A stretch of 64,000 bases of DNA. It comes from a virus (lineage: Duplodnaviria > Heunggongvirae > Uroviricota > Caudoviricetes). The notes below the pieces were generated by a model that worked only from the letters and a program-made list of their open reading frames with translations, did no database searches and was not told where the DNA came from. A program made the position numbers and the translations under genes. Positions 26,865 through 60,885 of the stretch are shown here, piece after piece (positions within the stretch are counted from its first letter, which is position 1; each line of letters begins with the position of its first letter). The stretch lies in IMG/VR virus record IMGVR_UViG_3300026549_000060, positions 1-64,000 of that record; one strand, written 5' to 3'.

Positions 26865-27860
26865 CTACCAACCTATATCATTAGGATCATCAACTTTAAT
26901 CCCAAAGATATCACAAAAATTAGAAATACGATCATCAACTGCAAATTCTTGCATTTTATTATAATTAATTCTAAACTTAGTTAAATCTAATGTACCATTA
27001 GTAGGAATAGTAATACAATCTAACTTACCTTCTTTACCCATTGTACCAGATCGAACTAAATCTGTCAAGCGTCTTTGTGTATCTGAATCAAATTGACCTA
27101 TATCAATTTCTTCCAAGTCAAATCTATAGCCTCTATCCATTACTCTAAAGGTACTTCCATAAATTGCATTATATACCAACATAGATTTAACTGATCTTGG
27201 CAGTCTATCTTGGGCATAGTTTTCTTTATTCCAAGAACTTGGAATAGCACAATAAACTGTACCTGTTTTTAACTGCTCAACATATCTACCTCTATAATCA
27301 TCAATCTTAGTGGTAAGCTCTTCTTTACTGATTCCTTTCTTAAGGATATGCTCAATAAAATCATTTAACATATCTCTGCTAAATTGAGGATAATCAGATC
27401 TTACAACTTCTATACCACTAATACTGATTTTATCCAAAGGCTTTCCTTCTTTGGAAACTAACCAAATAGCATACTTCTTTTTGATTTCCAGAAACAAAGC
27501 TCTTCTAATAACAAGTTCCTGTTTAAAATTAAAGTTAAACTTTTTAGCCGAAGATTCTGTAGGAGATGTATTATGCATATTAAGAAGTTCATGAATCATT
27601 ACATTATTAATATACTGTGCTACAGATTCATTCAATTCAATAACTTTATCTATCTTTTCCTTGTCAGAAATTTCATCATAATCTTTTCCATAAATTGCTT
27701 TCAATGCATCGCCATATTTAGTAAAAATTGAATCTGTATTATGAACTAATATGTCATTTGCAAAAAAACAATGATCATCATCTGGCATTTCAATATCATA
27801 TACATCAATAGGTTCTTCTGGAGTAATCACTTCTATTGATTTAACACTCTCTATCTTCAT
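26865..27860 (-). CDS. Family-B DNA polymerase C-terminal fragment, beginning with a C-terminal split-intein half (IntC about 41 aa; 27738..27860)
   Basis: MKIESVKSIEVITPEEPIDVYDIEMPDDDHCFFANDILVHN is an intein block F/G ending in HN. It is followed by TDSIFTKYGD..., the C-extein that continues pol motif C (YGD|TDS). Confidence 0.8.
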   Translation of the reverse strand: MKIESVKSIEVITPEEPIDVYDIEMPDDDHCFFANDILVHNTDSIFTKYGDALKAIYGKDYDEISDKEKIDKVIELNESVAQYINNVMIHELLNMHNTSPTESSAKKFNFNFKQELVIRRALFLEIKKKYAIWLVSKEGKPLDKISISGIEVVRSDYPQFSRDMLNDFIEHILKKGISKEELTTKIDDYRGRYVEQLKTGTVYCAIPSSWNKENYAQDRLPRSVKSMLVYNAIYGSTFRVMDRGYRFDLEEIDIGQFDSDTQRRLTDLVRSGTMGKEGKLDCITIPTNGTLDLTKFRINYNKMQEFAVDDRISNFCDIFGIKVDDPNDIGW

Positions 27861-27914: not shown

Positions 27915-28540
27915 ATTACACAATATTCTTATTTGTAGGTCCTGTATAGTATGGGCAATACAATACTAATCAGGTATCAATTATACGATATTCTTATTTG
28001 TAAGTCCACATGGTAAAACAATTCCACTACTCCAAAAGCTCATAGTTATACGATACCCTTATTTATAAGTAACGTATAGTGAGTATACCAGAACTGAAAG
28101 AGCACGTCAAGTTATACGATACTCTTTATTTGTAAGTGTCGTATAGTGCTAAAATACTCATGTTTAAAATGTCTGTTATACGATACCCTTATTTGTAAGT
28201 ACCGTATAGTAACATCATTAAATTTCATTTTTACATCACTGTTATACGATACCCTTATTTGTAAGTACCGTATAGTATGTGATGGACCATGCAGGAAGAA
28301 GATAGCGTTATACGATACCCTTATTTGTAAGTACCGTATAGTGATGATGAGGTAATAGCAGTAATAGTTAGAGTTATACGATACCCTTATTTGTAAGTAC
28401 CGTATAGTCACCCAAATCAGCATACTCTTTAATATCATGTTATACGATACCCTTATTTGTAAGTACCGTATAGTTCTTTTTTATCGTCTGTTGTATCTTC
28501 TTTTGTTATACGATACCCTTATTTGTAAGTACCGTATAGT
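27915..28540 (-). CRISPR. CRISPR array with eight conserved 36-bp repeats plus two degenerate terminal repeats
   Basis: Repeat gttatacgatacccttatttgtaagtaccgtatagt at 28045, 28111, 28175, 28241, 28307, 28373, 28439 and 28505. Spacers are 27-30 bp. Degenerate copies lie at 27915-27950 and 27980-28015. The degenerate repeats are distal to the nuclease gene, so I infer transcription on the minus strand from 28541-28750. Confidence 0.85.
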
Positions 28541-28543
28541 ATC

Positions 28544-28640
28544 CTATACGCAAACTCTTACAAATACTGAGTTTATTCAATATTCAGTTGTAAAAAACAG
28601 CATTTTCCATACGTAAAAACAAATAAAAAGTATCGTATCC
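28544..28640 (-). ncRNA. putative tracrRNA-like / leader region carrying two anti-repeat segments
   Basis: ctatacg-caaactc-ttacaaata (28544-28566) is the reverse complement of the repeat's 3' half (tatttgtaag..cgtatag). gtatcgtat (28630-28638) is the reverse complement of the repeat's 5' part (atacgatac). The region lies between the nuclease gene and the array. Confidence 0.35.
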
Positions 28641-28751
28641 GAATAAATCCGGAGGCAGTTAATTTTCATTAACTTTATTTAAATTCACATCGCTGATTCT
28701 GATGATCTTATTTAAATGGGTTTGCCAAACTTACCCAAATACATCCCCTGT

Positions 28752-30236
28752 TTATTTAGGGAATTTAGAATACTTTAGACCTTCAATTACGTCTTTAACT
28801 CTCATCCTAACTGGATGAAATGGATGGTATCCAACCCAACTAAAATCTGGAATTGCTTTTCTCATAATACCCATAGCGCCATTTACATCAGCATTCACCA
28901 ACTTTCCAACCCCAGAAGAAAACAATCCTCTGTGAATTCTTTTACCAAAGTTAGCCTCATCTCTAGTTTCAGGGTCTTCTTTAGTAGCCAAGGGAGCATT
29001 TCTAAGATGATCTGTTTTACTAGTATAAGACTCTTCAACAATCTCGAAGCTTATGCCCCTCATTTTACACTTATATTCGAGTTTGTCAAGTAGTTTTTTA
29101 AAAGGAAAGTTAACAATAATTTGATTATTTTTATGCCCAGTATTGATCTTCTGCTTCATATCTTTATTCCAACCGCAAATAACTCTACAAATATTATAAT
29201 GGAGGCAATATCTAACAATATACTTAGTATATGCATCAACGATATAATTTATACGATTAATATGATTCTTTGTCATTGCTTCAATTCTCTTAGTAGTATA
29301 CTGCTTAGGTCTTTTCTTCCCATTTTCATCAGTAATAACTTCAATCTTATGTTTAAGTTTATCTACCATTAAATGATAAAATCTAATTTTAGATTTCAAA
29401 GCATTACCATCAAGGATAACTGGATTAAGTTTATCATCACTAGTAATTATAGTACAAAAATTTCTAATACCCAAATCAATACTAAGATATCGTTTATTAT
29501 CAAGTTTAGGAACCGATTCATTATACGTATAAATTATTTCAATCTTAAAATATCCTTTTTTAGGAATTATCCTAACTTGGTCAATTCTTTTTCCTTTTAC
29601 ATACTCCGAATTATGTGGCAATTTTTGAAGTGGGATATAAATGCTTTTATTATATCCATCCGTTCCCCTCGGCTTAGGAAACACAAGACTTCTAGTTTTT
29701 GAGTTAATTTTAATAGAAGTACCAGAAAAGTATAATGGGCACAGATCTCCTTTTTTATAAAAACCGGGCTTTCTTGGCATTCCTTTATATTTTTCCGGGT
29801 GCCTACTCCAATCCCCAAGGGATCTTCCATATGATTTTAAATTTTTAGATAGTAATGTTCTAATTACCTCTGTAGTTGCATCTCTACCTACAAGATTTTT
29901 AAGTAGTTCCCAATTACTTTTACCCTCAAGATTTTTAGTATAATACTCACCGTTCTCATCTTGTTCACTGGCATATCTCCTCAAACTCATTACTTTAAAA
30001 AAATCATCGACAGGTTTTTCAAAACCAACGTATTCGTCTGGAAACCAAGGAAAAGACTTACCAGTTTCTTTTTTATATTGTTCTCTAACCGGGTCATAAG
30101 CTTCTTTAAACTCATAAGCATAGTACAGTGTCTGATTATACAAATTCTTAGCAACAGTACATGCTTCTACAAGCCAATCATATACTTCTTCATTTCCAGG
30201 TCTTCTATAAAAGTTAAAACTAGCAGTAAGTTGCAT
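28752..30236 (-). CDS. TnpB/Cas12-like RuvC nuclease (494 aa), the CRISPR-associated effector candidate
   Basis: RuvC-I LSIDLGIRNFCTI, RuvC-II ISFEIVEESYTSKT and RuvC-III NADVNGAMGIMRKA, with a TnpB-like WED region (KGKRIDQVRIIPKKGYFKIEI). No cysteines between RuvC-II and RuvC-III. RBS gaggggg. Confidence 0.8.
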   Translation of the reverse strand: MQLTASFNFYRRPGNEEVYDWLVEACTVAKNLYNQTLYYAYEFKEAYDPVREQYKKETGKSFPWFPDEYVGFEKPVDDFFKVMSLRRYASEQDENGEYYTKNLEGKSNWELLKNLVGRDATTEVIRTLLSKNLKSYGRSLGDWSRHPEKYKGMPRKPGFYKKGDLCPLYFSGTSIKINSKTRSLVFPKPRGTDGYNKSIYIPLQKLPHNSEYVKGKRIDQVRIIPKKGYFKIEIIYTYNESVPKLDNKRYLSIDLGIRNFCTIITSDDKLNPVILDGNALKSKIRFYHLMVDKLKHKIEVITDENGKKRPKQYTTKRIEAMTKNHINRINYIVDAYTKYIVRYCLHYNICRVICGWNKDMKQKINTGHKNNQIIVNFPFKKLLDKLEYKCKMRGISFEIVEESYTSKTDHLRNAPLATKEDPETRDEANFGKRIHRGLFSSGVGKLVNADVNGAMGIMRKAIPDFSWVGYHPFHPVRMRVKDVIEGLKYSKFPK

Positions 30237-30298: not shown

Positions 30299-31408
30299 TC
30301 AAGAGGCTTTATTAAAAACCTTATATCCATTACGAGCTGTCTTATCTTCACATAAGATAATAAATTTAGGATAGCTATTACTATTAAAATAAGTTGCTCT
30401 CTTACAGTGCTTACACGATAAGCACTGAATCATCACTGGTGCCTTTTTCCTTATATGGTAGTCCTGAAATTGTGGGCAAAAATTAACGTTTGATGTAACA
30501 ATCGACCTTGGAAATTCGTTTCTAAAAAATGTCCACTGTCTTGTTAGATCTAATCCATTAAAATTTTTATTTTCTAATATATTCTTAAACTTCTTTTGTT
30601 CCATATATTCTATAATGTCAGTCTCTTTTAAAGCATCTAATCCCTCATCAGTTAGATTGTCATAAAACCTATCTACATACCATTTAACTCCGTTTGTAAC
30701 TCGAAAAGCGTATTCATAAGATCTATCACAAACTAGGTCGCTCTCACCACTTCTATGAATCCAATTGCATGGAATACTGCCGCTTAAGTATGCCTGTTTT
30801 AATTCGTCATATGTAGATTCTCTATTTACTTTAGATAAGTCATACTCTACAACATAAAAATTATTAGTATCTATAGATTTAATTAAATCTAGTTTTACAT
30901 CATCTACTCCATGGGTTACTGTTACTTCAAGATACACGCTACATGGAGAGCTATTAAATCCAAACATTTCCTCATAACTAACATCATAGCATGTCAAATC
31001 GGGTCTAATATATTTCCCATTAGCACAATTTAAATTTTTTTCAAGATAACCCTTATTAAATTTATAAAAATTTGATTCTTTAATCCTAATATATGATGTG
31101 CCCATACTAAGCGTATTAGGATTTATAATATTACCATTCCAATCAATATCTAATTCAGGCATCCTACATAGGCCTGTTTCCATAATAATCTTTTTCATGC
31201 CTAAATGTAAATTAGTCTCTCCATGAACATAAACTGAAGCTGGACATTTACTATTCGGTAAATGTGAAAAATGATGACCAACAATATTACCTTTTTTAGC
31301 TACTAAAGGCTCCCCGCATATAGGGCAGATATAATTATGCAACCCAGACACTACTTCAGAAATATTCTTAATGCTACCGTCTATCAAACAATATTCTAAC
31401 TGAGCCAC
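30299..31408 (-). CDS. CoiA-like protein (competence-protein-CoiA family; nuclease-related)
   Basis: N-terminal YICPICGEPLVAKKGNIVGHHFSH matches the CoiA CPxCx..GxxxxxHFAH motif. Confidence 0.45.
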   Translation of the reverse strand: MAQLEYCLIDGSIKNISEVVSGLHNYICPICGEPLVAKKGNIVGHHFSHLPNSKCPASVYVHGETNLHLGMKKIIMETGLCRMPELDIDWNGNIINPNTLSMGTSYIRIKESNFYKFNKGYLEKNLNCANGKYIRPDLTCYDVSYEEMFGFNSSPCSVYLEVTVTHGVDDVKLDLIKSIDTNNFYVVEYDLSKVNRESTYDELKQAYLSGSIPCNWIHRSGESDLVCDRSYEYAFRVTNGVKWYVDRFYDNLTDEGLDALKETDIIEYMEQKKFKNILENKNFNGLDLTRQWTFFRNEFPRSIVTSNVNFCPQFQDYHIRKKAPVMIQCLSCKHCKRATYFNSNSYPKFIILCEDKTARNGYKVFNKAS

Positions 31409-35693: not shown

Positions 35694-38273
35694 TTATAAG
35701 GTGATTAGTTGGTCTGTTACAACTAATTCTGTTGGTTTAATTATAGTTTTAACATTATTTCTCATTACTACCAAACTATGATCTTCAGTTACAGTGACTG
35801 TTTTTCCAGATTCAGTAGTAATCTTATACAGTTTCTTATTAGTTTTATGCTTCATCAGATACCTTGGGAAATAAAGTCTGTCATCATATCCAAGTACGCA
35901 TTTATTAGGATTCTGAATATAATTTTTTCCGAGATAATGCCACACTTTATTATCCGAAGCACACATATCCCAAAGTTCTTTAATAGTTATATTACCTTTA
36001 CCAGTTCTGATTAAAGAATCTCCAGTAACTGAATCTCCATAAATTACATTTGGTAGAGCTTGTTCTGATTGGTAATCCCAATCAAAAGGAATATCTACAT
36101 GGTCAAATTTATTAGATTTATTTTGAATCATTTGATTAATGCAATTATTAGCAACTACTGCGGCGATTTTAGCAATTTCTCTACCAGTAGAAGTAATACT
36201 TCTGGCAACCTCATAATCATACAATCTGAATCTAATATTGGACTGACCACCATAAAGAGAATTAGTAATGATCTTAACTGTTTTCTGCATAGTATCATAT
36301 CTGTCAACTAGCATTTGGTCTTTACCAATATTATCCTTCATAAGATCTTTATACTCTTTTCTCTTTTTAATGAGCATATCTACAATATCATAAAGAACTG
36401 ACTGCTTATCTTCATGCTTCTTAAAGATAGTGCCAATCTGGGTAATAATATACCCATTCTTAAGCATTCTTTCATGAAAACTTTTAGCAGACAATTTATA
36501 CAATCTCTCAATACCTTGAACTTTCAAATACAAACTTACATCTGTATTGGAATTAACAAATTCTTCTTTATTAAAGATATATTGTCTAGCAGTATCTGTA
36601 TCAACTTTTCCTACATAGGTATCTGCACTAATGTTATATCTTGCCATAATGTATGGATAAAGAGAAGTAAGATCCAAATCACCCAACCAATCATGTACAC
36701 CGCTAATTGGTTCTCTAACATAAGCACCCGCAAACTTTTTCTTCTCAATTCCAGCTTTAACAATTTTGGCTACTTTATCTCTATCCATAAGATACTCATA
36801 AAGAATCCCATCACAAATATGTAGAGTAGTATAAATACTATCCCATGAGATATTAGCCAACTGGACTATACTAAAATTAAGGTCAATATACTTCAACTTT
36901 TCATCCAATTTTCTTACAAGATGAACGTCGTTAATATTGTATGCAATAAACCTTTCAGGTTCTTCCCTAAAGATTTTATCCATGCCATCTTCAGTATCAA
37001 GTTTAGTAATACCCAACTCAATTTTAGAAATAGTTCCAAGCTTATAATTCTCTTTTTTACCAAGAGTTCTTTCCTTATAGCATCTTTGATAATCAAGTGC
37101 TACAGAATAACCAATATGAGGAATACAATAAGTAACTTCCTCTTCATGTTTATTCATAACTGTTTTATATTCAATTTCAAAAGTTTTATTATGAGCCAGT
37201 TTAGGATGTTCAATTCCTAAAAATTCTGCTCTATACTTAATATAAGGTAAATCAAATTCATCACTATTCCACCCAGATACTAGATCTGGATCAAATTCTT
37301 TCAATAAACTGAAGAACTTAAGGAACATATCACTTTCTTTATCAAAGATTTCTACATTGAAAATACACTCATCTTTGTAATCAAGATATTCCTTAATTTG
37401 TTCAGTATTAATTTTAGCTTTGTTTAAATTATAGACCAAAGTATAATATTTGTCAGTATAATTATCATACAAAGTAATCAAGTTAACGGGAATAACTCTA
37501 GCTGACTTCTTAATATCAGCAAAGTCAATAATACCATATCCTTCTTGATACAACTCAATATCAACATAATTTACTCTAAGTTTATAATGACCAAGATTAT
37601 CTTTGTTTTCTTTTTTCCAAAGATAATTCTTATGAATAGCCAAATTAAAATCTACATTATAAATAGCTTTATAAGAAGATTCTGACTGAATTTGTTCAAT
37701 AATGTATTTTCTTTTACCATAATGTACCAGTTCACCTTTTAATCCTGCAATATCATGAACATCTAAATAATCATCTTTACCGGTATACATCATAACCATA
37801 TCATCAGTCTGAGTAATATATCTTTTATCACCAACTCTAATAACATATGCAAATTCCTTATTCACATAGTCTGAATAGAAGTTAAACAGCATAGGCTTAG
37901 AATACCCATCAGTTGGCTTAGAATCTTCTTTCTCTTTAGAGCTATACAATTTATATTTACTCTTTTTATTAATAACTACATCAGTTTCTTTCTTTTTAGG
38001 TTTTTCTTCAATTTTGGGAAACACGGGTTTAACAGGAATATAATTAAACTTATAAATAGTGTTATACTTCTTATGTACTTTAGCAATATCTTCAATAGAA
38101 TACTTATACGCATAAGGATTATTGAAAAGCTGATTCAATACAATAGATGTTTCAAAATCTTCTTCAGCTAAACTTAAAATAGAGGAAATCTTAAGAGACT
38201 TACATTCCTCTGGAAATGGCACATTTCCTTCAGTAGCTAACCATCTTATATATGTAGTTAGTGGTGAAGCCAT
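35694..38273 (-). CDS. Family-B DNA polymerase N-terminal fragment (3'-5' exonuclease and polymerase motifs A, B and the YGD of C), ending in an N-terminal split-intein half (IntN about 112 aa; 35697..36032)
   Basis: Motifs YVDIE, YNINDVHL, GAYVREP, DLTSLYPY (motif A) and KIITNSLYG (motif B), then ...NVIYGD|SVTGDSLIRTGKG (intein block A) ... TVTEDHSLVV (block B TxxH) and a stop. Confidence 0.85.
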   Translation of the reverse strand: MASPLTTYIRWLATEGNVPFPEECKSLKISSILSLAEEDFETSIVLNQLFNNPYAYKYSIEDIAKVHKKYNTIYKFNYIPVKPVFPKIEEKPKKKETDVVINKKSKYKLYSSKEKEDSKPTDGYSKPMLFNFYSDYVNKEFAYVIRVGDKRYITQTDDMVMMYTGKDDYLDVHDIAGLKGELVHYGKRKYIIEQIQSESSYKAIYNVDFNLAIHKNYLWKKENKDNLGHYKLRVNYVDIELYQEGYGIIDFADIKKSARVIPVNLITLYDNYTDKYYTLVYNLNKAKINTEQIKEYLDYKDECIFNVEIFDKESDMFLKFFSLLKEFDPDLVSGWNSDEFDLPYIKYRAEFLGIEHPKLAHNKTFEIEYKTVMNKHEEEVTYCIPHIGYSVALDYQRCYKERTLGKKENYKLGTISKIELGITKLDTEDGMDKIFREEPERFIAYNINDVHLVRKLDEKLKYIDLNFSIVQLANISWDSIYTTLHICDGILYEYLMDRDKVAKIVKAGIEKKKFAGAYVREPISGVHDWLGDLDLTSLYPYIMARYNISADTYVGKVDTDTARQYIFNKEEFVNSNTDVSLYLKVQGIERLYKLSAKSFHERMLKNGYIITQIGTIFKKHEDKQSVLYDIVDMLIKKRKEYKDLMKDNIGKDQMLVDRYDTMQKTVKIITNSLYGGQSNIRFRLYDYEVARSITSTGREIAKIAAVVANNCINQMIQNKSNKFDHVDIPFDWDYQSEQALPNVIYGDSVTGDSLIRTGKGNITIKELWDMCASDNKVWHYLGKNYIQNPNKCVLGYDDRLYFPRYLMKHKTNKKLYKITTESGKTVTVTEDHSLVVMRNNVKTIIKPTELVVTDQLITL

Positions 38274-46157: not shown

Positions 46158-46235
46158 TGGTCGGGTATGGAGGATTTGAACCTCCGACCCTCTGCTCCCA
46201 AAGCAGATACGCTAACCAGACTGCGCTAATACCCG
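46158..46235 (-). tRNA. tRNA-Pro (anticodon TGG), CCA encoded
   Basis: Manual fold: acceptor cgggtat/atacccg, anticodon stem tctgc/gcaga, loop tttggga, T-arm ggagg-ttcaaat-cctcc. Confidence 0.75.
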
Positions 46236-46240
46236 TTTAG

Positions 46241-46777
46241 TTACTCTTTAAAATACAAATCCCCAGTTTTATCTCCATCAATCTTATGCAGAAATACCCA
46301 ATCTAAAAACTCACAAGCAGTAGATCTTTCTTCTTCAGAACAATCACTACCATTAATATACTCATCAAACCATTTATAAAACAGTTTCTTTCTATTGAAA
46401 GTTGCATTAATACAACTACTAAGCATATCCAAGTCAATATCTTTAAGATCTGTTTTACCGGCGTTTTTCATTACAGCTTCAATAGTTTCCCTGATAGCCT
46501 TAACATTTTCTGGCTGATAATAACGTTCGGCATTATTAGTCACATTTTCACATTTATTTATAGTCATATTCATATTTGTTATCCCACTTTCTTTATATTG
46601 GTAATAATGATTGGGATACTTAAAGACCAAAACTCTAGCTTTATAGGGAGAGGTTTGATCTCTATCCCAATAAACTAGTTCCATTTCTAAAAGCTTTCTA
46701 GCTTCAAATGGAGTAATCTTGACACTATCTTTTTTAAACTCTGAATCAAATAACTTAATTGTTTTCTCCATACTCAT
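46241..46777 (-). CDS. hypothetical protein
   Basis: ORF. Confidence 0.45.
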   Translation of the reverse strand: MSMEKTIKLFDSEFKKDSVKITPFEARKLLEMELVYWDRDQTSPYKARVLVFKYPNHYYQYKESGITNMNMTINKCENVTNNAERYYQPENVKAIRETIEAVMKNAGKTDLKDIDLDMLSSCINATFNRKKLFYKWFDEYINGSDCSEEERSTACEFLDWVFLHKIDGDKTGDLYFKE

Positions 46778-47078
46778 TATGGGTAGTCTCCTTTATATAA
46801 GGGTGATTGTCTCTGCTTTTTTAATCAAGAAAAAACAGGTCAAAAAGAAAAGGTTTGAGGGGAATTTCACCCCTCTGAGAGGTATTAAATTTTAAACTAA
46901 AAAGCCATAGGAATATACGCAGCTTTATAAGTCTGTTGCTTAGTTGATCAGTATCTAAGCTATCTGGAAGATGCGAAGACCTATGGTTAATTCTTTAAAA
47001 GGCTATAGGAATATCAGTACTCAAATGATCAGTTTAAGTAGTCTATCTGATAGACCTATAGTCAATGCTTATCTATTA

Positions 47079-47687
47079 TTAGGGCCACTCACCAAGAGGC
47101 TGTCCAAGAAGACCCTGCTGAGGAACCCCTTCAAGAATCTCCTTGAATTCAATCTTATCGTAATTGGAATACACACTGATAAGAACAACCCTGTTAGGAT
47201 TACCCTTAGTCATAGCCTCAGGAGAAAGCACCATCTCTGTTTCACCAGCAAAGACGTACTTCACACCATTGACAACCTGTGTACCAATAAGTGCAAAAAC
47301 TGAAACATTACTACCAACAAATCCAGCAAGATTATCCTCAAGAACCTTCATGGCCTCTTCAGGAATATCAGTAGTAGGATTAATCTGAACCCCACCCATC
47401 TTACCAGAGTCAGACAGGACATTGGTAATCTCCACAATACTGAACTTATCATCCTTCTCATTAAGAACAATAAGAACCACATTATGAACATCATTTCCAG
47501 TAATCATGGTCTGTGTAGCAAGAATAGCATGATTAACTCCAGAAACAACCTTACTACCAAGGTATGCAATCACATTATACTCAGCACCAACCATATTACC
47601 AAAAATCTCTGTAAATGCGGAAGCAACCTTCTGAGGAAGCTTACCGGGAACAACATGAATCTCATAACTACCCAACATAAATATCAT
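47079..47687 (-). CDS. hypothetical protein with two internal repeats of an approximately 85-aa domain, in a GC-elevated (about 42%) region
   Basis: Repeated ...AFTEIFGNMVGAEYNVIAYLGSKVVSGVNHA... / ...EDNLAGFVGSNVSVFALIGTQVVNGVKYV... Confidence 0.45.
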   Translation of the reverse strand: MIFMLGSYEIHVVPGKLPQKVASAFTEIFGNMVGAEYNVIAYLGSKVVSGVNHAILATQTMITGNDVHNVVLIVLNEKDDKFSIVEITNVLSDSGKMGGVQINPTTDIPEEAMKVLEDNLAGFVGSNVSVFALIGTQVVNGVKYVFAGETEMVLSPEAMTKGNPNRVVLISVYSNYDKIEFKEILEGVPQQGLLGQPLGEWP

Positions 47688-48207
47688 ATCCTTTCTTATT
47701 TATTTTTATCAAAAATAAAAGCTTTTATCAACATTACAATTATAAAAATTATAACTACGTATTGTATATATGGCAATAACTTTATTGAACTATCAAATAC
47801 TCCTGATAACCAGGAAAAGAATACATCAAACATACAATGTATGCACTACCAAGTTATGTTTAGTAGTATCTACTTTCTGTGGATAAGGATCTTCATTATT
47901 CTTAAATCTCTGATACTGAAGATCTTTATACTCCTTCTTCTTCACCATTGTTCTAGTACCTGTACTGTCTTCTGTAAAATACCATTCAGTCATGTTATAC
48001 ATCAATCCTTTCTTAAGGCATATCAACTTCGTCTACATAAAGAACAATTTCCTCATTACCATAGCTATCACCAGTTGCTGAAATACTTGATTCATCATAA
48101 AGTTGCTGAACTGAATCAAAATAGCTCTCAGAAACCTCAACTCTATGCCCTTCATCAGTTTTAAGATAGTATTTAGCAGACATATTAACTACACCCTTTC
48201 TTTTCTT

Positions 48208-49044
48208 TTATGTTACTGTAAATGTTTTTGAAATATCGTATTGTTCGTTCTGCCACCACGCATCCATTCCTACTCGAAAGTCTATACGGACTGTATGTTC
48301 ACCAACATCACTTACAGAGGCAGGGTCTGGAGCTGTCCAACTTCCAGAAGCAGTTAAACTATTATAAGTCTGAGAATATACCCGATTTTCATCATAGTAT
48401 AAAGTTATAGAATTAAGTTGATATCTAGTTTGTTGAACTGTATACGGAACAAAATCCCATTCAACATATGCACTTTCACCAACCGATATATTATTAACCC
48501 TTAACACCATACCCTTGTATCTGCCTTCACCTTCTCTATACGAAATATCAACGGTCCTTACGTTATCATTGTTGTCTTCTCTAACATAGGTGTTAAACAA
48601 ATCTATTATACGATTATAACAGCTATCTGCCGGTCTACTTGATAAATAAATACTATAAAATGAATCTTCACCATAATCATAATAGGTTAAAGTTTCTCCG
48701 TCATAATTAAATGTTTGATCGATATATGGAAAATAAATAGAAAAAGAGCCTAAATGGGCTATGTCAGGATCAGAGCAATATGCTCTTAGTTCAAACCATC
48801 CCATATCGGGAGGAGTATTATAATAAGGATCGTCTCCATTGCCATATGTACCGTAAGCTGACGCAGCTGGTTTACCAATTAAACGATCATTTATAACTAA
48901 AACAATTTTAAATTTTTCAGATTTATTTTTAATAACAAACCCAACACTAATAGTCGAATCATAAGTTTGTGCTTCCGCAAAGGTCATTCTGTATATCTTA
49001 TACTCATCTTTCCCCCCATTCAACAAAAGAGGTTTTGTAAACAT
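48208..49044 (-). CDS. hypothetical protein
   Basis: ORF. Confidence 0.45.
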   Translation of the reverse strand: MFTKPLLLNGGKDEYKIYRMTFAEAQTYDSTISVGFVIKNKSEKFKIVLVINDRLIGKPAASAYGTYGNGDDPYYNTPPDMGWFELRAYCSDPDIAHLGSFSIYFPYIDQTFNYDGETLTYYDYGEDSFYSIYLSSRPADSCYNRIIDLFNTYVREDNNDNVRTVDISYREGEGRYKGMVLRVNNISVGESAYVEWDFVPYTVQQTRYQLNSITLYYDENRVYSQTYNSLTASGSWTAPDPASVSDVGEHTVRIDFRVGMDAWWQNEQYDISKTFTVT

Positions 49045-49113
49045 TGATAAACACTCCTTTTATAAGTTTTATATTTGTAAGAACTAGGTAAACTAGTTTA
49101 AAAGTCAAAGGTA

Positions 49114-49189
49114 TGGTGGACTCGCTGGGGTATGATCCCAGAACCTGGCGATTATAAGTCGCCTACTCTACCAATTGAGCTACAAGTCC
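49114..49189 (-). tRNA. tRNA-Ile (anticodon TAT), CCA encoded, with a non-canonical T-loop
   Basis: Acceptor ggacttg/cgagtcc, anticodon stem ggcga/tcgcc, loop cttataa, T-stem ctggg/cccag with loop atcatac (A54/T58 covariation). Confidence 0.65.
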
Positions 49190-49198
49190 ATGTAATAA

Positions 49199-49285
49199 TG
49201 GTGCCCAGGGGGGGACTCGAACCCCCACGCCAGAGATGGCAAGGGATTTTAAGTCCCTTGTGTCTACCTATTCCACCACCTGGGC
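49199..49285 (-). tRNA. tRNA-Leu (anticodon TAA), class II long variable arm, CCA encoded
   Basis: Anticodon stem aggga/tccct, loop cttaaaa, variable arm gccatctctggcgt, T-loop ttcgagt. Confidence 0.7.
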
Positions 49286-49307
49286 ATTTAACTATTTTTA
49301 TATTTTA

Positions 49308-49384
49308 TGGAGCCCCTAGGAAAAGAGTTGAACTTCCATCACTTCTTTACAAGAGAAGTATAATAGCCGTTATACTATAGGGGC
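49308..49384 (-). tRNA. tRNA-like gene, possibly tRNA-Thr (TGT) or a pseudo-tRNA
   Basis: Acceptor gccccta/taggggc plus tCCA. Anticodon stem cttct/agaag with loop cttgtaa. The T-arm is irregular (ggaag-ttcaact-cttttcc, with G-U pairs or extra bases). Confidence 0.4.
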
Positions 49385-49553
49385 AAATAAATCTTATTTG
49401 TAGTCTACATCACTCAAAAGATTTAGGAAAGTTCTATACTATATTTTACTTCTGATTAACAGAGAGTGCTCCATCCTTAGCTATAGTATAGATAGATGGT
49501 TAAAAGGTGTAGATCTTTCAATAACTACTTACTGAAGACCTTTATCCAGGAAA

Positions 49554-49582
49554 ATTATATCAGCAGTATAGTTATTTGTCAA
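49554..49582 (-). promoter_or_regulatory. sigma70-type promoter (TTGACA-N17-TATAAT) driving the tRNA cluster
   Basis: Minus strand: tacTTGACAaataactatactgctgaTATAAT. Confidence 0.55.
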
Positions 49583-50043
49583 GTACAAAACTGACTCACT
49601 TATTTATATGATCTACATGACCCTAAGAATAGGTCATTTGTGTAGTACTTTCGATGACTTTAATGGGCGTAATATATGTACTACAATCCTTTTCCCCTTT
49701 CAATCAAAGGATGACAGTTTCTTACCACTTGCAGTAACCTGACAACTCTCCGGAATCCTCCACTCAACACTGCTCTAGCTTCTACTAAAGGTGGCTCAAC
49801 ATTAAGTTTCATAGGATAACTACTACCTCAAGTGTAGTAGGTTCTAACAGTTTTTATAAAGTCTATCCCTTAGCCAAGGTAATTTTTATTGAGGGTTACA
49901 TTCCCTAATAGACTTCTATCCTACTTATGCCAAATGAAGACATTACAATCTTCTAAGTAGATCAGCCTTTATTTACTGTTATTTCCCAAGCACTGATTTG
50001 GGTGAAAGGATTTTAATTGTAACTCATTTTAGGTTACAATTTA

Positions 50044-50117
50044 ATTTTTAATGGCTCCTCCTGGTGGTTACGCTCCACCGTATACGGTTTAACAGACCGC
50101 CACTCTACTATTGAGTT
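50044..50117 (-). tRNA. tRNA-Asn (anticodon GTT), CCA encoded, with a non-canonical T-loop
   Basis: Acceptor tcctcct/aggagga, D-arm actc/gagt, anticodon stem gcggt/accgt with loop ctgttaa, T-stem ggtgg/ccacc with loop agcgtaa (A54/T58). Confidence 0.55.
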
Positions 50118-50133
50118 AAGGAGGAATTAGAAC

Positions 50134-50228
50134 TGGCTCTGGAGCCCCGATTCGAACGAGGATGAGAAAGGAGGTCCCTTTACTTACTGATCCAAAGTCA
50201 GCTGTTTTTCCAATTAAACTACTCCAGA
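50134..50228 (-). tRNA. tRNA-like gene with a Gln anticodon (TTG) and an unusually long (about 24-nt) variable region, CCA encoded
   Basis: Acceptor tctggag/ctccaga + g + cca. D-arm gttt/aaac. Anticodon stem gctga/tcagt with loop ctttgga. T-arm cctcg-ttcgaat-cgggg. The 95-nt length is atypical. Confidence 0.45.
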
Positions 50229-50372
50229 GTTAAATTATCAAGGGTTCACTTAAGACTCGCACTTAAGATCTTCAGCTTTCACATTTTCCTAATTATGCTC
50301 TAGAAGCATACATAGAAAACACTACTCAGTGAGATTTTGCTATTTAAACTATGAACCATGTCCAACAAAGAT

Positions 50373-50401
50373 ATTAAAGCATACTGACAAGAATTTGTCA
50401 A
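50373..50401 (-). promoter_or_regulatory. sigma70-type promoter (TTGACA-N17-TTTAAT) upstream of the Gln-like and Asn tRNAs
   Basis: Minus strand: cTTGACAaattcttgtcagtatgcTTTAAT. Confidence 0.4.
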
Positions 50402-51093
50402 GAGGTGATTTTAAAAATTTTATGGCAGGTCCACTACCGCTTGCAGATAGTTCTGAAGTTTTGGAGACTCCTGTTTTACTACATAAACTATGGACCCATC
50501 AATATTTGTTCAAAAAATTTTAGGTGTGGAGAGAAGTAATGAGGTACTCCTCCCCACTTCAAAGGAGAACGATCATGAGCGGAAAAATATATAGATACTT
50601 GATAGCTGTGAGGTATGTTCAGACTCAGACTCTGTTTAAATAGTACAGACCTTTATTCACAGATTTACATAATAATTACCAGCTACTTACTATTAGCGAA
50701 CGAGTTTACGTTATATTAAAGCTAATGTGATTTCACTAAGTAAATCTTAAGTGAGGTTCGACCAAGCCTCTTCATAGGGTCTAACTACTAAATCAACAAT
50801 ACTAACTACTCCCTACTCAGTAAAGTCTTACTCAATCCAAGATAAAATAGTCATCAATCAAAGACTATTATTTGAAATTAGATGTAAGGCTTTCTAGTCT
50901 CAGGAAAATTGAGAGAAAAGCATTGTTATTATATCGTCACATTTCAGGTGTGAAAATATAATTAGATAACTTTGCGGTCATCTAAATATTAGGAGAGTAT
51001 CTTTCTTATTTTTACATGAATAAGATACTCAGAAAATCATGAAACAGAGTATTTAGAACTTTCACCAAGTATCAAATCTTTAAGTACTAAAAC

Positions 51094-51762
51094 TTAGTAC
51101 TCAATTTCAATAGTGGTAGTTGCGTTAGAAACCTGAAGTGCTGAATCAACATTGAGTTCAAACTGATCAATCTCAATACTAAGAGCGTTAATCTTCTTAT
51201 TAATATCAATAGGATCAATAAGAACTGGCTGATTCTCCATATTGTACTTTTTCTTAAAGGCCATGATAGCATCTGTATTGATATTGGTTTTATCCTTATT
51301 ACCATACAGGGTCTCAATGGTTTTTTCAAGTCTCTGTTCAGCTTTTTTAGTATCCTCTTCAAGCTGACTCTGTGCAAACTGAAGCTGAGTCTGAAGAGTA
51401 TTAAGAAGCATTTTCTTAGTCTTAAGCCCATACTTCATCTGATAAATTGCTTCAGCAACAGTCATTTCCTTACCACCAACATTAATGATGGTTTCAGCAT
51501 TAGACTTACTGATAGCAGCTTTAATAGCATCAACTCTTCTAATCAGATCAGTAACTGCCTGATAATTACTGCTTACCTTAGAACTAAAATCCTGAATTGA
51601 CATTCCATCAATTCTAAAATTATCATTAGTAGGATTATTATTTACAGCCACATACCTATTGCTAAAACTAGTGTACTGCATAATTTTCTTATCTGCAAGT
51701 TTGACCTCACAAAGCGCCTTATGAATAGTCATCTTCTCAGTAGTCATTGCTTCAACCTCCAA
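51094..51762 (-). CDS. hypothetical coiled-coil protein
   Basis: ORF. Confidence 0.45.
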   Translation of the reverse strand: MEVEAMTTEKMTIHKALCEVKLADKKIMQYTSFSNRYVAVNNNPTNDNFRIDGMSIQDFSSKVSSNYQAVTDLIRRVDAIKAAISKSNAETIINVGGKEMTVAEAIYQMKYGLKTKKMLLNTLQTQLQFAQSQLEEDTKKAEQRLEKTIETLYGNKDKTNINTDAIMAFKKKYNMENQPVLIDPIDINKKINALSIEIDQFELNVDSALQVSNATTTIEIEY

Positions 51763-51770
51763 ATAATAGT

Positions 51771-51912
51771 TTTTACTTAACTCTCTTAAAATAAACTACA
51801 ACACCAGCAATAATAACAAGCAAAGCTACAAGAACTGCACTGGAAGTAATAGGATTAGCAGCTACAGTATTCTTAGCAGCGGTAAGCCAAGTAAACGCAT
51901 AATTCAACATGT
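51771..51912 (-). CDS. small hydrophobic (TM) protein, about 43 aa, not in the supplied ORF track
   Basis: RBS aggagg followed by an ATG. MLNYAFTWLTAAKNTVAANPITSSAVLVALLVIIAGVVVYFKRVK. Confidence 0.4.
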
Positions 51913-51971
51913 TTAAATTCCTCCTCATAATAAATACTAAGTCTATAAACTCTTACTAATACTACTTTAGT

Positions 51972-52058
51972 AAGTTTAGGACAGAGGGCAGGAGACTCGA
52001 ACTCCCAATACCTTTTCAGGTATGCCTGTTTTCAAGACAGGTTCCTTAACCAATTTGG
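51972..52058 (-). tRNA. tRNA-Ser (anticodon TGA), class II; CCA not encoded
   Basis: Acceptor agagggt/gccctct, anticodon stem cctgt/acagg with loop cttgaaa, variable arm atacc/ggtat, T-loop ttcgagt. Confidence 0.7.
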
Positions 52059-52164
52059 ATAACCCTCTATATTAGGGGGAGTAGAATGTAACCAAGACCT
52101 CCCCATTTTAGGAGATTACATTTTTAAATATTATACTTCTCCCACCAGTCACATTCTAATAATG

Positions 52165-60129: not shown

Positions 60130-60885
60130 ATGTATTTGGAAAAAGCATTTTGTGAATTTGTAAAACCAAAACAGGTAAATTATGTATTGGATGAAGTTTC
60201 TGATAAGAAAACCCTATTTGAAGCAGATGAAATAACAAAACGACTTCATAATAGTTATTTGAGATCTGAAATAGATAAAAGTACTTGGACTAAAAAGAGT
60301 ATAAGTGCTTATGACCTTACTGGTTGTATAAAGAAGCTATATTTTAGGTTAAGGGGTATTAGTCCATCTGATACTCCTAATTATCCATATTCAAATATAA
60401 TTTTTGGTATAGGCAATTCAGTACATCAAGCATTAGTGGATGCTATACAACCAGAAGAAGTTGAAGTTTCATTTAAGTCATATATTATTGGTTTTGAATT
60501 GAATATGAGATGTGATGCTATTTGCTATGGTAAGATATTGCATGAGTATAAAACTGTGGAAAAGATAGATGATGACACTGAATTAAAACCAGAGCATTTA
60601 CAACAAGCAGTTATTTATGCATACTTATTGAATAAAATACATCATAGAAATATACAGTATATTCAGATTATATATGTTTCTAGAGGTAAAGTTAGCGTTA
60701 AAGTATTTAATGTTGAAGTTAATGAAGATATAATGAATAAGGTTGGTAATAGATTGAACAAGCAATTGAGAGAACTTAAAGATTGCTTAGATCAATATAG
60801 AGTACCTTCTTTTGATAGTGAGTATTGTTCAAAAGATTGTAAGTTTTGTGAGTATGCAACTTTTTGTAGATGTTTAAGTAGTTAA
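60130..60885 (+). CDS. Cas4-like / RecB-family PD-(D/E)XK nuclease with a 4-Cys Fe-S cluster motif
   Basis: N-terminal Cys (LTGCIKK). D...EYK nuclease core (CDAICYGKILHEYK). QxxxY (QQAVIYAY). C-terminal C-x3-C-x2-C-x5-C (CSKDCKFCEYATFC). Confidence 0.6.
   Translation: MYLEKAFCEFVKPKQVNYVLDEVSDKKTLFEADEITKRLHNSYLRSEIDKSTWTKKSISAYDLTGCIKKLYFRLRGISPSDTPNYPYSNIIFGIGNSVHQALVDAIQPEEVEVSFKSYIIGFELNMRCDAICYGKILHEYKTVEKIDDDTELKPEHLQQAVIYAYLLNKIHHRNIQYIQIIYVSRGKVSVKVFNVEVNEDIMNKVGNRLNKQLRELKDCLDQYRVPSFDSEYCSKDCKFCEYATFCRCLSS

What the first reader, a model, noticed from the sequence alone, without database searches (positions are those of the whole stretch)
27915..30236. Phage-encoded hypercompact TnpB/Cas12-like nuclease directly coupled to a CRISPR array, with no adaptation genes
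A 494-aa protein with a complete RuvC-I/II/III triad and a TnpB-like WED region lies about 210 bp upstream of a 10-repeat CRISPR array (36-bp repeats, 30-bp spacers), and both share one orientation. The degenerate repeats are at the gene-distal end, which is consistent with an operon nuclease -> leader/tracr -> array.

There is no cas1, cas2 or cas4 next to it, no TnpA, and no recognisable IS200/605 ends. It therefore looks like a minimal type-V-like effector module, or an evolutionary intermediate between a TnpB omega-RNA system and Cas12. It is carried by a phage, plausibly for inter-phage or anti-plasmid competition. At 494 aa it would be among the smallest CRISPR-associated effectors.
Basis: partly seen in the sequence, partly recalled or inferred. 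Interest (0 to 1): 0.95.

Follow-up and report, generated by a model that had tools for sequence, protein, structure and literature searches.

The report
Phage TnpB-derived mini CRISPR system
A large rumen phage carries a compact RNA-guided nuclease descended from a transposon gene (TnpB), with its own helper RNA and a CRISPR array whose spacers change between near-identical phages; this kind of system is already known, but this lineage is rare and apparently undescribed.

Summary
A 494-aa TnpB-family ORF (28752-30236, minus strand) is followed after 211 bp by 10 repeats (six perfect 36-nt copies, 30-nt spacers; 28540-27915) on the same strand, with the degenerate repeats distal.

All relatives whose downstream sequence is long enough (99-52% identity, rumen metagenomes) have a downstream array. 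The repeat sequence differs between loci. The 211-bp gap encodes a structured RNA with an anti-repeat that pairs best with its own locus's repeat, so it is a tracrRNA. Spacer sets differ completely between 99%-identical effectors, and one locus has one extra leader-proximal spacer.

The nearest non-CRISPR relatives are IS607-type TnpBs with a serine recombinase and no array.

The best reading is a phage-borne, TnpB-derived type V ("V-U"/TranC-like) tracrRNA-dependent effector.

- The RuvC triad is not canonical. The RuvC-II glutamate is relocated (E401/E402 after beta-5) and the zinc-finger cysteines are absent.
- 494 aa is average for Cas12f, not record-small.
- A Cas4-like gene lies 30 kb away.

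No spacer target was found, so the biological role is inferred. About 50 independent TnpB-to-CRISPR captures and several phage-borne examples are already published. Interest is moderate.

The parts
28752..30236 (-). Effector gene, 494 aa, TnpB-derived (WED-REC-WED-RuvC-TNB). Putative catalytic residues are D254, E401/E402 (relocated RuvC-II) and D450 (NADVN). It has an enlarged helical REC (about residues 14-147) and no zinc-finger cysteines.
   Evidence: AF2 mean pLDDT is 84.8. The best PDB fold matches are AsCas12f (E 2.8e-15, TM 0.56/0.65) and the ISFba1/ISDra2 TnpBs.
28592..28751 (-). tracrRNA-like structured RNA between the stop codon and a T-run. It has conserved stem-loops at 28736-28718, 28717-28677, 28673-28658 and 28652-28639. 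Its 5' end may lie inside the ORF.
   Evidence: RNAalifold on 4 loci gives 37 pairs, 12 of them with compensatory changes. 93% of cells are paired. 12 pairs change on both sides, against 5.5+/-1.6 in shuffles (0/500) and 0-3 when slid. There is no Rfam match.
28606..28639 (-). Anti-repeat (GATACGATACTTTTTATTTGTTTTTACGTATGGA), complementary to almost the whole 36-nt repeat.
   Evidence: Duplex dG is -28.2 kcal/mol, against -16.5+/-2.6 for shuffled repeats. An anti-repeat lies at positions 110-148 after the stop codon in L008 and L005, and at 146-185 in L007. Each pairs best with its own repeat (diagonal -27.8 to -32.2, off-diagonal -15.5 to -26.7).
28580..28597 (-). Conserved T-run plus the TTTACAAyTGAATA motif. 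It is a putative tracrRNA terminator and/or start of the array leader.
   Evidence: It is conserved in W, L004, L005, L006 and L008. Its function is inferred. The sigma-70 scan finds no promoter here.
27915..28540 (-). CRISPR array with 10 repeats (6 perfect 36-mers, then 4 degenerate) and 9 unique spacers of 27-30 nt. The leader end is next to the effector.
   Evidence: L001-3 (99% identical effector) carry entirely different spacers. L008 has one extra leader-proximal spacer relative to L004.

Best explanation
This is a minimal, phage-borne type V CRISPR-Cas module that arose by domestication of an IS607-type TnpB. In current terms it is a 'V-U' or transposon-CRISPR-intermediate (TranC-like) system.

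Proposed mechanism:
- The effector gene, a downstream tracrRNA and the array are transcribed in the same direction.
- The tracrRNA anti-repeat pairs with each 36-nt repeat of the pre-crRNA. The long duplex is probably cut by host RNase III.
- The 494-aa protein binds the tracrRNA:crRNA pair through its WED and enlarged REC domains.
- It then cleaves PAM-flanked DNA complementary to the 30-nt spacer, using a RuvC site whose second acidic residue has moved from beta-4 to beta-5 (E401/E402).
- New spacers enter at the effector-proximal end. No adaptation genes are in the locus, so acquisition would depend on Cas1-Cas2 supplied in trans, either by the host or by a part of the phage genome not in the window.
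- In the phage, the system most likely attacks competing mobile elements (co-infecting phages, prophages, integrative elements).

Shown here: the protein family, conserved synteny with arrays, covarying repeat and anti-repeat, the structured RNA, spacer turnover, absence of a transposase, and the fixed genomic site.

Inferred: transcription, RNase III processing, DNA cleavage, the PAM, the source of adaptation, and the identity of the targets.
For: 1. Family and fold. TnpB family match is above cut-off. The fold matches Cas12f and TnpB.

2. Association with arrays.
- The close family is one small group: five 90%-identity protein clusters (99, 85, 80, 77 and 52% identical), then a drop to 36%.
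- In the 1.84-billion representative library it is a single 50% cluster, and the next hit scores 217 bits.
- Seven of the eight related loci show repeats downstream in the same orientation. The eighth (L006) ends within its first repeat copy. The repeat sequence changes with protein divergence.

3. tracrRNA. An anti-repeat lies in the gap at every locus examined and pairs best with its own repeat. The stem-loops covary.

4. Active array. There are no shared spacers between the window and L001-3 despite 99% identical effectors and a near-identical leader. L008 equals L004 plus one extra unit at the leader end. Terminal repeats are degenerate.

5. Domestication.
- The nearest non-CRISPR relatives (34-36% identity, 413-424 aa) sit directly behind an overlapping serine-recombinase TnpA. 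Only 40-65 bp separate them from the next gene, and they have no array.
- The CRISPR-linked family has no TnpA. It always sits at the same site, immediately upstream of the intein-C/PolB-C gene, wherever the sequence past the array is available (window, L005, L007, L008).

6. Catalysis. D254, E401, E402 and D450 are invariant in 64 homologues, including the mobile IS607 TnpBs. E401/E402 directly follow strand 396-400 in the model. This matches the beta-5 relocation described for RuvC-II-rearranged TnpBs, which are predicted to be active.

7. The repeat occurs in no bacterial CRISPR locus among 185,579 species genomes. The only hit is another copy of this same phage locus, in a rumen MAG.
Against: - No protospacer was found for any of about 35 spacers. 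Searches covered the window and loci, 50,697 phage records, 72,556 plasmids, and six spacer seeds against IMG/VR. Targets, PAM and biological role are therefore unknown.
- No expression or cleavage data exist.
- The canonical RuvC-II glutamate and the zinc-finger cysteines are missing, so nuclease activity rests on analogy.
- No Cas1/Cas2 was found, which leaves the observed spacer turnover mechanistically unexplained.
- The one-unit difference between L008 and L004 could be a deletion rather than an acquisition.
- No sigma-70-like promoter was found in front of the array.
Confidence: 0.75

Rival explanations
1. The module is an RNA-guided DNA binder rather than a cutter. Like Cas12m, Cas12c or TldR proteins, the effector would bind spacer-matched DNA and block transcription or replication of targets without cleaving them.
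For: The canonical RuvC-II glutamate position is G355-W356-N357. The TNB domain has lost its zinc-binding cysteines. Nuclease-inactive type V variants are common.
Against: D254, E401, E402 and D450 are invariant across 64 homologues, including IS607-linked TnpBs that need cleavage for transposon retention. The relocated glutamate lies right after beta-5, the arrangement interpreted in the literature as an active rearranged site.
Confidence: 0.12
2. The module is an RNA-guided homing or marker-exclusion device. It would keep the ancestral TnpB role: spacers direct cuts in related co-infecting phage genomes that lack the cassette, or carry other alleles. Recombinational repair would then spread the cassette and neighbouring markers, as homing endonucleases do in T4-like phages.
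For: The cassette lies in a region crowded with selfish elements. These include a split intein in PolB, HNH endonuclease genes, and a LAGLIDADG intein in ThyX of L006. Many spacers have the low GC content of the phage itself. TnpB's known role is homing (discussion).
Against: No spacer matches any of the eight related loci or the 64-kb window. Some spacers have 50-61% GC, unlike this 31% GC phage lineage.
Confidence: 0.08
3. The array is a hijacked host-type CRISPR array that works with host Cas proteins (the viral mini-array model), and the TnpB gene is only a neighbour.
For: Viral arrays that use host Cas machinery are well documented. No adaptation genes are present here.
Against: The repeat pattern is absent from the species-representative genome set apart from this phage locus itself. 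The anti-repeat directly behind the TnpB gene covaries with the repeat in four repeat variants. The gene-RNA-array order is conserved from 99% down to 52% protein identity.
Confidence: 0.03
4. It is an ordinary mobile IS605/IS607 TnpB with an omega RNA, and the repeats are an unrelated repeat element or MITE.
For: The protein scores better against TnpB than against any Cas12 model.
Against: There is no TnpA. The locus sits at one fixed site in all related phages. Spacers are unique between regular 36-nt repeats. The anti-repeat and repeat covary. Spacers turn over.
Confidence: 0.02

Closest known systems
TranC (transposon-CRISPR intermediates; Jin et al., Cell 2025, known here through PMC13565253 and bioRxiv 10.64898/2026.03.27.714800), including the phage-borne CauTranC9 and clade 20
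   Same: - The effector is TnpB-like and closer to TnpB than to established Cas12 subtypes.
- The array lies downstream.
- The guide is split into a tracrRNA with an anti-repeat plus a crRNA.
- There are no adaptation genes.
- It originates from IS605 or IS607 TnpBs.
- Repeats of 36 bp and a length near 500 aa resemble clade 20 (513 aa, 36-38 bp).
- A phage host is known for CauTranC9.

   Different: - I could not compare sequences with any published clade.
- The solved LaTranC structure is only rank 44 in the fold search.
- This lineage has a relocated RuvC-II glutamate and no zinc-finger cysteines.
- Use of both the ancestral transposon RNA and crRNA, shown for LaTranC, is untested here.
Cas12f (subtype V-F), e.g. 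AsCas12f (PDB 8dzj, 7wju, 8j12)
   Same: These are the best structural matches (E 2.8e-15, TM 0.56/0.65). The size is similar, guidance is tracrRNA-dependent, and the array lies downstream of the gene.
   Different: - Identity in the structural alignment is only 14-15%.
- NCBIfam Cas12f2 scores 37 bits against a cut-off of 450.
- PADLOC Cas12f hits are partial (1e-9 to 1e-11).
- AsCas12f has the canonical RuvC-II glutamate; this protein lacks it and has no TNB zinc-finger cysteines.
- Dimerisation is unknown.
IS607-type TnpB with a rearranged RuvC-II site ('derived' NADxN TnpBs, RIIr branches of Altae-Tran et al. 2023, PMC10691335)
   Same: These are the nearest sequence relatives (34-42% identity). 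They share the GxN replacement of the canonical glutamate, the EESYTS motif, the NADVN motif and the lack of zinc-finger cysteines.
   Different: Those proteins are 410-425 aa, sit behind a serine-recombinase TnpA, and have no array. This one has about 50 extra residues in REC, a separate tracrRNA, an array, no transposase and a fixed locus.
Other phage-borne type V effectors: Cas12p 'hacker', Cas-lambda, Cas-phi (Cas12j), Cas12r
   Same: They are carried by phages, have arrays without adaptation genes, and are presumed or shown to act in conflicts between mobile elements.
   Different: They are larger and not specifically related. Cas12p is described as 500-700 aa and its solved chains rank 22 and 24 in the fold search. 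Cas-lambda2 chains (628 and 738 residues) rank 48-49.

Membership tests
Type V CRISPR-Cas (generic) | Single effector with a TnpB-like RuvC domain | tested here: met
   NCBIfam guided_TnpB 2e-32. Pfam OrfB_IS605 + Cas12f1-like_TNB. Fold matches to Cas12f and TnpB.
Type V CRISPR-Cas (generic) | Evolutionarily conserved linkage of the effector to a CRISPR array | tested here: met
   Repeats lie downstream in the same orientation in seven of eight related loci. The eighth ends within its first repeat. Linkage holds at 99-52% protein identity, and the repeat co-varies.
Type V CRISPR-Cas (generic) | crRNA-guided interference with nucleic acid targets | not testable with these tools
   No protospacer was found. 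No expression or cleavage data exist.
Type V CRISPR-Cas (generic) | Canonical D-E-D RuvC triad | tested here: not met
   D254 and D450 are present. The canonical RuvC-II position is G355-W356-N357. An alternative invariant E401/E402 follows beta-5. The literature interprets this as a rearranged, probably active site.
TranC / subtype V-U (TnpB-like CRISPR-associated nucleases) | Protein nested among TnpBs, closer to TnpB than to named Cas12 subtypes | tested here: met
   guided_TnpB scores 112.9 bits (above cut-off), against Cas12f2 at 37 bits and Cas12u3 at 44.5 bits. The nearest relatives are IS607 TnpBs. No tree was built.
TranC / subtype V-U (TnpB-like CRISPR-associated nucleases) | Guide split into a tracrRNA (with anti-repeat) and a crRNA from an array downstream of the gene | tested here: met
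   A covarying anti-repeat and a structured RNA are present. This is computational only.
TranC / subtype V-U (TnpB-like CRISPR-associated nucleases) | Assignment to a published clade or V-U group | not tested
   Sequences of the published clades were not available in the tools.
Cas12f (V-F) | Match to curated Cas12f family models | tested here: not met
   NCBIfam CRISPR_Cas12f2 scores 37.4 bits against a cut-off of 450. PADLOC Cas12f models give partial matches only.
Cas12f (V-F) | Zinc-finger cysteines in the TNB domain | tested here: not met
   There is no cysteine between E402 and D450 in any family member.
Cas12f (V-F) | Asymmetric homodimer on one guide RNA | not testable with these tools
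   No complex prediction was available.
Mobile IS200/IS605/IS607 TnpB (OMEGA) | Linked TnpA and/or transposon ends, with multiple or variable genomic sites | tested here: not met
   No transposase Pfam hit is recorded for any gene in the related loci or for the window ORFs that were scanned. The insertion site is always the same, upstream of IntC-PolB-C.
Mobile IS200/IS605/IS607 TnpB (OMEGA) | Single omega/right-end RNA with one guide | tested here: not met
   It is replaced by a tracrRNA plus an array of up to 10 repeats.

The most novel reading that the evidence does not exclude
Spacers in this phage lineage turn over rapidly. The sets are completely different at 99% effector identity, and one locus shows a polarised one-unit difference. 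Yet no Cas1-Cas2 is found in the locus, in 64 kb of phage genome, or linked to the same repeat in any of 185,579 species genomes.

The most novel reading not excluded is that acquisition here does not use a canonical Cas1-Cas2 integrase. It could instead use a phage-encoded route involving the Cas4-like nuclease or the variable nuclease genes just upstream, or recombinational exchange of array units.

In addition, the guide-binding half of the effector (WED/REC) and its tracrRNA and repeat are diversifying together far faster than the phage backbone. That would be consistent with an arms race between competing phages.
Probability: 0.1. Interest if true: 0.85.

Novelty: new variant of a known kind. 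Interest (0 to 1): 0.5.

Why it matters
This locus gives a clean natural example of the TnpB-to-Cas12 transition caught inside a virus.

- The ancestor type is identifiable: IS607-linked, with a relocated RuvC-II glutamate and no zinc finger.
- The derived state is visible: about 50 extra REC residues, a separate tracrRNA, an array, loss of the transposase and a fixed site.
- Sister loci show the guide RNA and the RNA-binding half of the protein changing together.

It also adds a compact (494 aa, or 460 aa in the sister clade) candidate genome-editing nuclease with a non-canonical active site.

It poses a concrete question: how does an array without adaptation genes renew its spacers in a lytic-type phage?

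It does not change the current picture. Repeated capture of TnpB by CRISPR arrays, and phage carriage of such systems, are already established.

Tried and rejected
**Spacer targets. All searches were negative.**
- Window array against INPHARED phages: only chance-level hits.
- 31 pooled spacers against phages, and 35 against PLSDB plasmids.
- All spacers against the window and all loci: only self-matches.
- Six 24-nt spacer seeds against IMG/VR.
- PAM and target class therefore could not be inferred.

**Related loci.**
- A protein-pattern scan of IMG/VR found no relative.
- The repeat pattern found nothing in IMG/VR.
- In JGI metagenomes it gave two single chance hits, L009 and L010, with no array.
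- Near-identity DNA search against phage records found nothing.

**RNA and regulatory signals.**
- Rfam has no family for the intergenic RNA.
- A single-sequence fold of the tracr region is not better than shuffles (z = -1.2). Only the comparative evidence counts.
- The sigma-70 promoter scan found nothing specific in front of the array.

**Stop-codon recoding.** I tested for it because of the suppressor tRNA. There is no clear signal in this window.

**Literature.** The TranC primary paper and the supplementary sequence tables were not available, so clade assignment was not possible.

**Readings considered and rejected.**
- A crAss-like phage: PolB relatives are T4-like and jumbo phages at 26-31% identity.
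- Cas12p, Cas-lambda or Cas-phi membership: low fold ranks.
Full report
**1. What is in the sequence**

The minus strand of 28752-30236 holds a 494-aa ORF ending in TAA. After 211 bp comes a repeat array, also read on the minus strand:
- Six identical 36-mers (ACTATACGGTACTTACAAATAAGGGTATCGTATAAC) at an exact 66-nt period (28540-28175).
- Four progressively degenerate copies, ending at 27915.
- Nine unique spacers of 27-30 nt.

The 108-aa 'ORF' at 28112-28438 is an artefact of translating the repeats.

The protein matches NCBIfam guided_TnpB above its cut-off (2e-32, 112.9 vs 100 bits) and Pfam Cas12f1-like_TNB (1.3e-09, above its cut-off). OrfB_IS605 matches just below its cut-off (27.1 vs 30.5 bits).

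**2. The carrier is a phage from the rumen**

The window encodes the following:
- a family-B DNA polymerase;
- a DnaB-like helicase;
- SSB;
- ThyX;
- a DEAD/ResIII helicase;
- a phosphoesterase;
- a DNA methyltransferase;
- tail-fibre and virion proteins;
- seven tRNAs.

The polymerase is only 26-31% identical to T4-like and jumbo-phage polymerases. No DNA-level relative exists among 50,697 phage records. Related contigs come from rumen assemblies: STEW19, and the rumen MAG RUG11211.

**3. The link between effector and array is conserved and co-evolving**

The large protein database holds only five close clusters (99, 85, 80, 77 and 52% identity). After those comes a drop to about 36%, to ordinary TnpBs of about 410 aa. 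An exhaustive search of 1.84 billion representatives finds one 50% cluster for the whole family plus one fragment. The next hit scores 217 bits.

Eight related loci were recovered (L001-L008). Seven show repeats downstream in the same orientation. The eighth, L006, ends within its first repeat copy. The repeat changes with protein divergence:

| Locus | Repeat |
|---|---|
| Window, L001-3 | ACTATACGGTAC...GTATCGTATAAC |
| L004, L006, L008 | CCTATACGATACCCTAAAATACAGGTATCGTAGGAC |
| L005 | CCTATACGATACCTTTAAATAAGAGGTACGTATAGC |
| L007 (460-aa protein) | unrelated repeat of about 29 nt, 61-nt period |

**4. A tracrRNA lies in the gap**

On the same strand, 113-146 nt after the stop codon (window 28639-28606), lies a sequence complementary to nearly the whole repeat. 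Its duplex energy is -28.2 kcal/mol, against -16.5+/-2.6 for shuffled repeats.

An equivalent anti-repeat lies at positions 110-148 in L008 and L005, and at 146-185 in L007. In a 4x4 cross-comparison each leader pairs best with its own repeat (diagonal -27.8 to -32.2; off-diagonal -15.5 to -26.7).

Upstream of the anti-repeat, four divergent loci share stem-loops:
- 37 consensus pairs, 93% of cells paired.
- 12 pairs with changes on both sides, against 5.5+/-1.6 in shuffles (0 of 500) and 0-3 when the partners are slid.

Rfam has no matching family. A T-run and a conserved TTTACAAyTGAATA motif follow (28597-28580). Their roles as terminator or leader are inferred.

**5. The array is dynamic**

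The window and L001-3 have 99% identical effectors, and their 211-bp gaps differ at one base. They share no spacer.

L004 and L008 share leader, repeat variants and a spacer (TTCTTTCAGTTCGGGCTCGGTCATATCGAG). L008 has one additional repeat-spacer unit at the effector-proximal end. This fits polarised acquisition, although a unit deletion in L004 cannot be excluded. Degenerate repeats sit at the distal end.

No Cas1 or Cas2 was detected among 68 window ORFs of at least 100 aa, or in the Pfam hits on record for the related contigs. A Cas4-family PD-(D/E)XK nuclease lies 30 kb away (60130-60885). Such genes are common in phages, and its involvement is unproven.

A degenerate repeat pattern finds no bacterial CRISPR locus in 185,579 species genomes. 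The only hit is another copy of this phage locus.

**6. Origin**

The nearest relatives without arrays (P0006 and P0019; 34-36% identity; 424 and 413 aa) each directly follow an overlapping serine-recombinase gene, the IS607 arrangement. The next gene starts 40-65 bp after the stop codon.

The CRISPR-linked family has no transposase. It always sits at one site, immediately upstream of a gene encoding an intein C-half fused to the C-terminal part of PolB (window, L005, L007, L008). Relative to the TnpB relatives of about 410 aa, most of the extra length lies in the helical REC region (about residues 43-100).

**7. Active site**

Profile alignments put the canonical RuvC-II glutamate (ISDra2 'GTEHL') opposite G355-W356-N357. 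Instead, E401 and E402 (EESYTSK) are invariant in 64 homologues, as are D254 and D450 (NADVN). In the AF2 model (mean pLDDT 84.8) E401/E402 directly follow strand 396-400.

This matches the published description of RuvC-II-rearranged 'derived' TnpBs. In those, the glutamate has moved from beta-4 to beta-5, and the site is thought to remain active. The TNB region has no cysteines.

Activity is likely but not shown.

**8. Structure and family placement**

Foldseek against the PDB ranks the hits as follows:

| Rank | Structure | Notes |
|---|---|---|
| 1-5 | AsCas12f | E 2.8e-15, TM 0.56/0.65, 14-15% identity |
| 6 | CnCas12f1 | |
| 7, 9 | ISFba1 and ISDra2 TnpB | |
| 22 | Cas12p | |
| 44 | LaTranC | |
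| 48-49 | Cas-lambda2 | |

Curated Cas12f models are not met: 37 bits against a cut-off of 450. PADLOC's best hits are Cas12u3 (3e-12) and partial Cas12f matches.

The protein is therefore a TnpB-like CRISPR-associated nuclease outside the named subtypes. This corresponds to what the literature calls V-U variants or TranC.

**9. Uneven divergence**

Between the window and L007:

| Region | Nucleotide identity |
|---|---|
| Phage backbone | 80-90% |
| Last 450 nt of the effector gene | 83% |
| First 1 kb of the gene (WED/REC) | 63% |
| tracrRNA/array region | not alignable |

The RNA-binding half and its RNA partner thus diverge together, much faster than the rest. This could reflect diversifying selection or replacement by recombination. 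I could not distinguish the two.

**10. Targets**

No protospacer was found in any accessible collection. Spacer GC ranges from 15 to 61% in a 31% GC phage, which suggests mixed targets. The proposed role in conflicts between mobile elements rests on analogy with Cas12r, CauTranC9 and viral mini-arrays.

**11. Comparison with what is known, and verdict**

- About 50 independent recruitments of TnpB to CRISPR arrays have been inferred. Typically the array lies downstream and there are no adaptation genes.
- The split of the transposon RNA into tracrRNA and crRNA defines the TranC intermediates, which arise from IS605 or IS607 TnpBs.
- A TranC from a Caudoviricetes genome, and other phage type V systems, are described.
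- Published mean lengths are 481 aa for Cas12f, 414 aa for TranC clade 9 and 513 aa for clade 20. 494 aa is therefore ordinary for this class.

The finding is a genuine, well-supported and rare lineage of a known kind. Its added points of interest are the relocated catalytic glutamate, spacer renewal without visible adaptation genes, co-diversification of the REC/WED half with the guide RNA, and its position inside a split-intein polymerase region.

Interest: 0.5.

Noticed in passing
window 35694-38273 (-) and 26865-27860 (-): The family-B DNA polymerase is split into two genes 7.8 kb apart. The N part ends in an intein N-half (residues 760-857). The C part begins with an intein C-half (...VHN|TDSIF, at the conserved DTDS motif). 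This implies protein trans-splicing. About 11 genes lie between the halves, including ThyX, a CoiA-like protein and the TnpB-CRISPR module. The same IntC-PolB-C gene follows the array in L005, L007 and L008.
   Followed up: partly
window 30299-31408 (-); L001 6306-7723; L004 3396-4139; L006 2870-6059: The stretch between thyX and the effector varies between otherwise similar phages. The window has a 369-aa CoiA-like zinc-ribbon protein. L001-3, L006 and L007 have small ORFs of 102-113 and 150 aa, preceded by an HNH_3 endonuclease in L001-3 and L006. L004 has a 247-aa ORF. In L006 the ThyX gene carries a LAGLIDADG intein. The region looks like a hot spot for selfish elements.
   Followed up: partly
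window 60130-60885 (+): A Cas4-family PD-(D/E)XK nuclease (Pfam Cas_Cas4 2.1e-05; PADLOC Cas4 2.3e-10; PHROG 1706 2e-25) lies 30 kb from the array. It may be an ordinary phage recombination nuclease. Any link to spacer acquisition is unknown.
   Followed up: partly
window 46158-52069 (-), especially 50242-50335: A cluster of seven tRNA genes includes a suppressor-type tRNA with anticodon CTA (reads UAG; ARAGORN labels it Pyl) and a tRNA-Ile with anticodon TAT. A test for TAG recoding showed no clear gain in long reading frames in this window.
   Followed up: partly
effector gene 28752-30236 compared with L007 1432-2814: The last 450 nt of the gene are 83% identical, at the level of the phage backbone. 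The first 1 kb is 63% identical, and the downstream RNA and array cannot be aligned. Third-codon positions are also more conserved in the 3' part (0.68-0.83, against 0.40-0.53 over the first 160 alignment columns). The cause could be recombination, diversifying selection, or an RNA embedded in the ORF end. It is unresolved.
   Followed up: partly
window 27912-27884 (-): A strong sigma-70-like promoter match (TTGACA, 17 nt, TG-TAGAAT; 11 of 12) lies directly after the last degenerate repeat. It sits just upstream of the PolB-C gene start at 27860.
   Followed up: no
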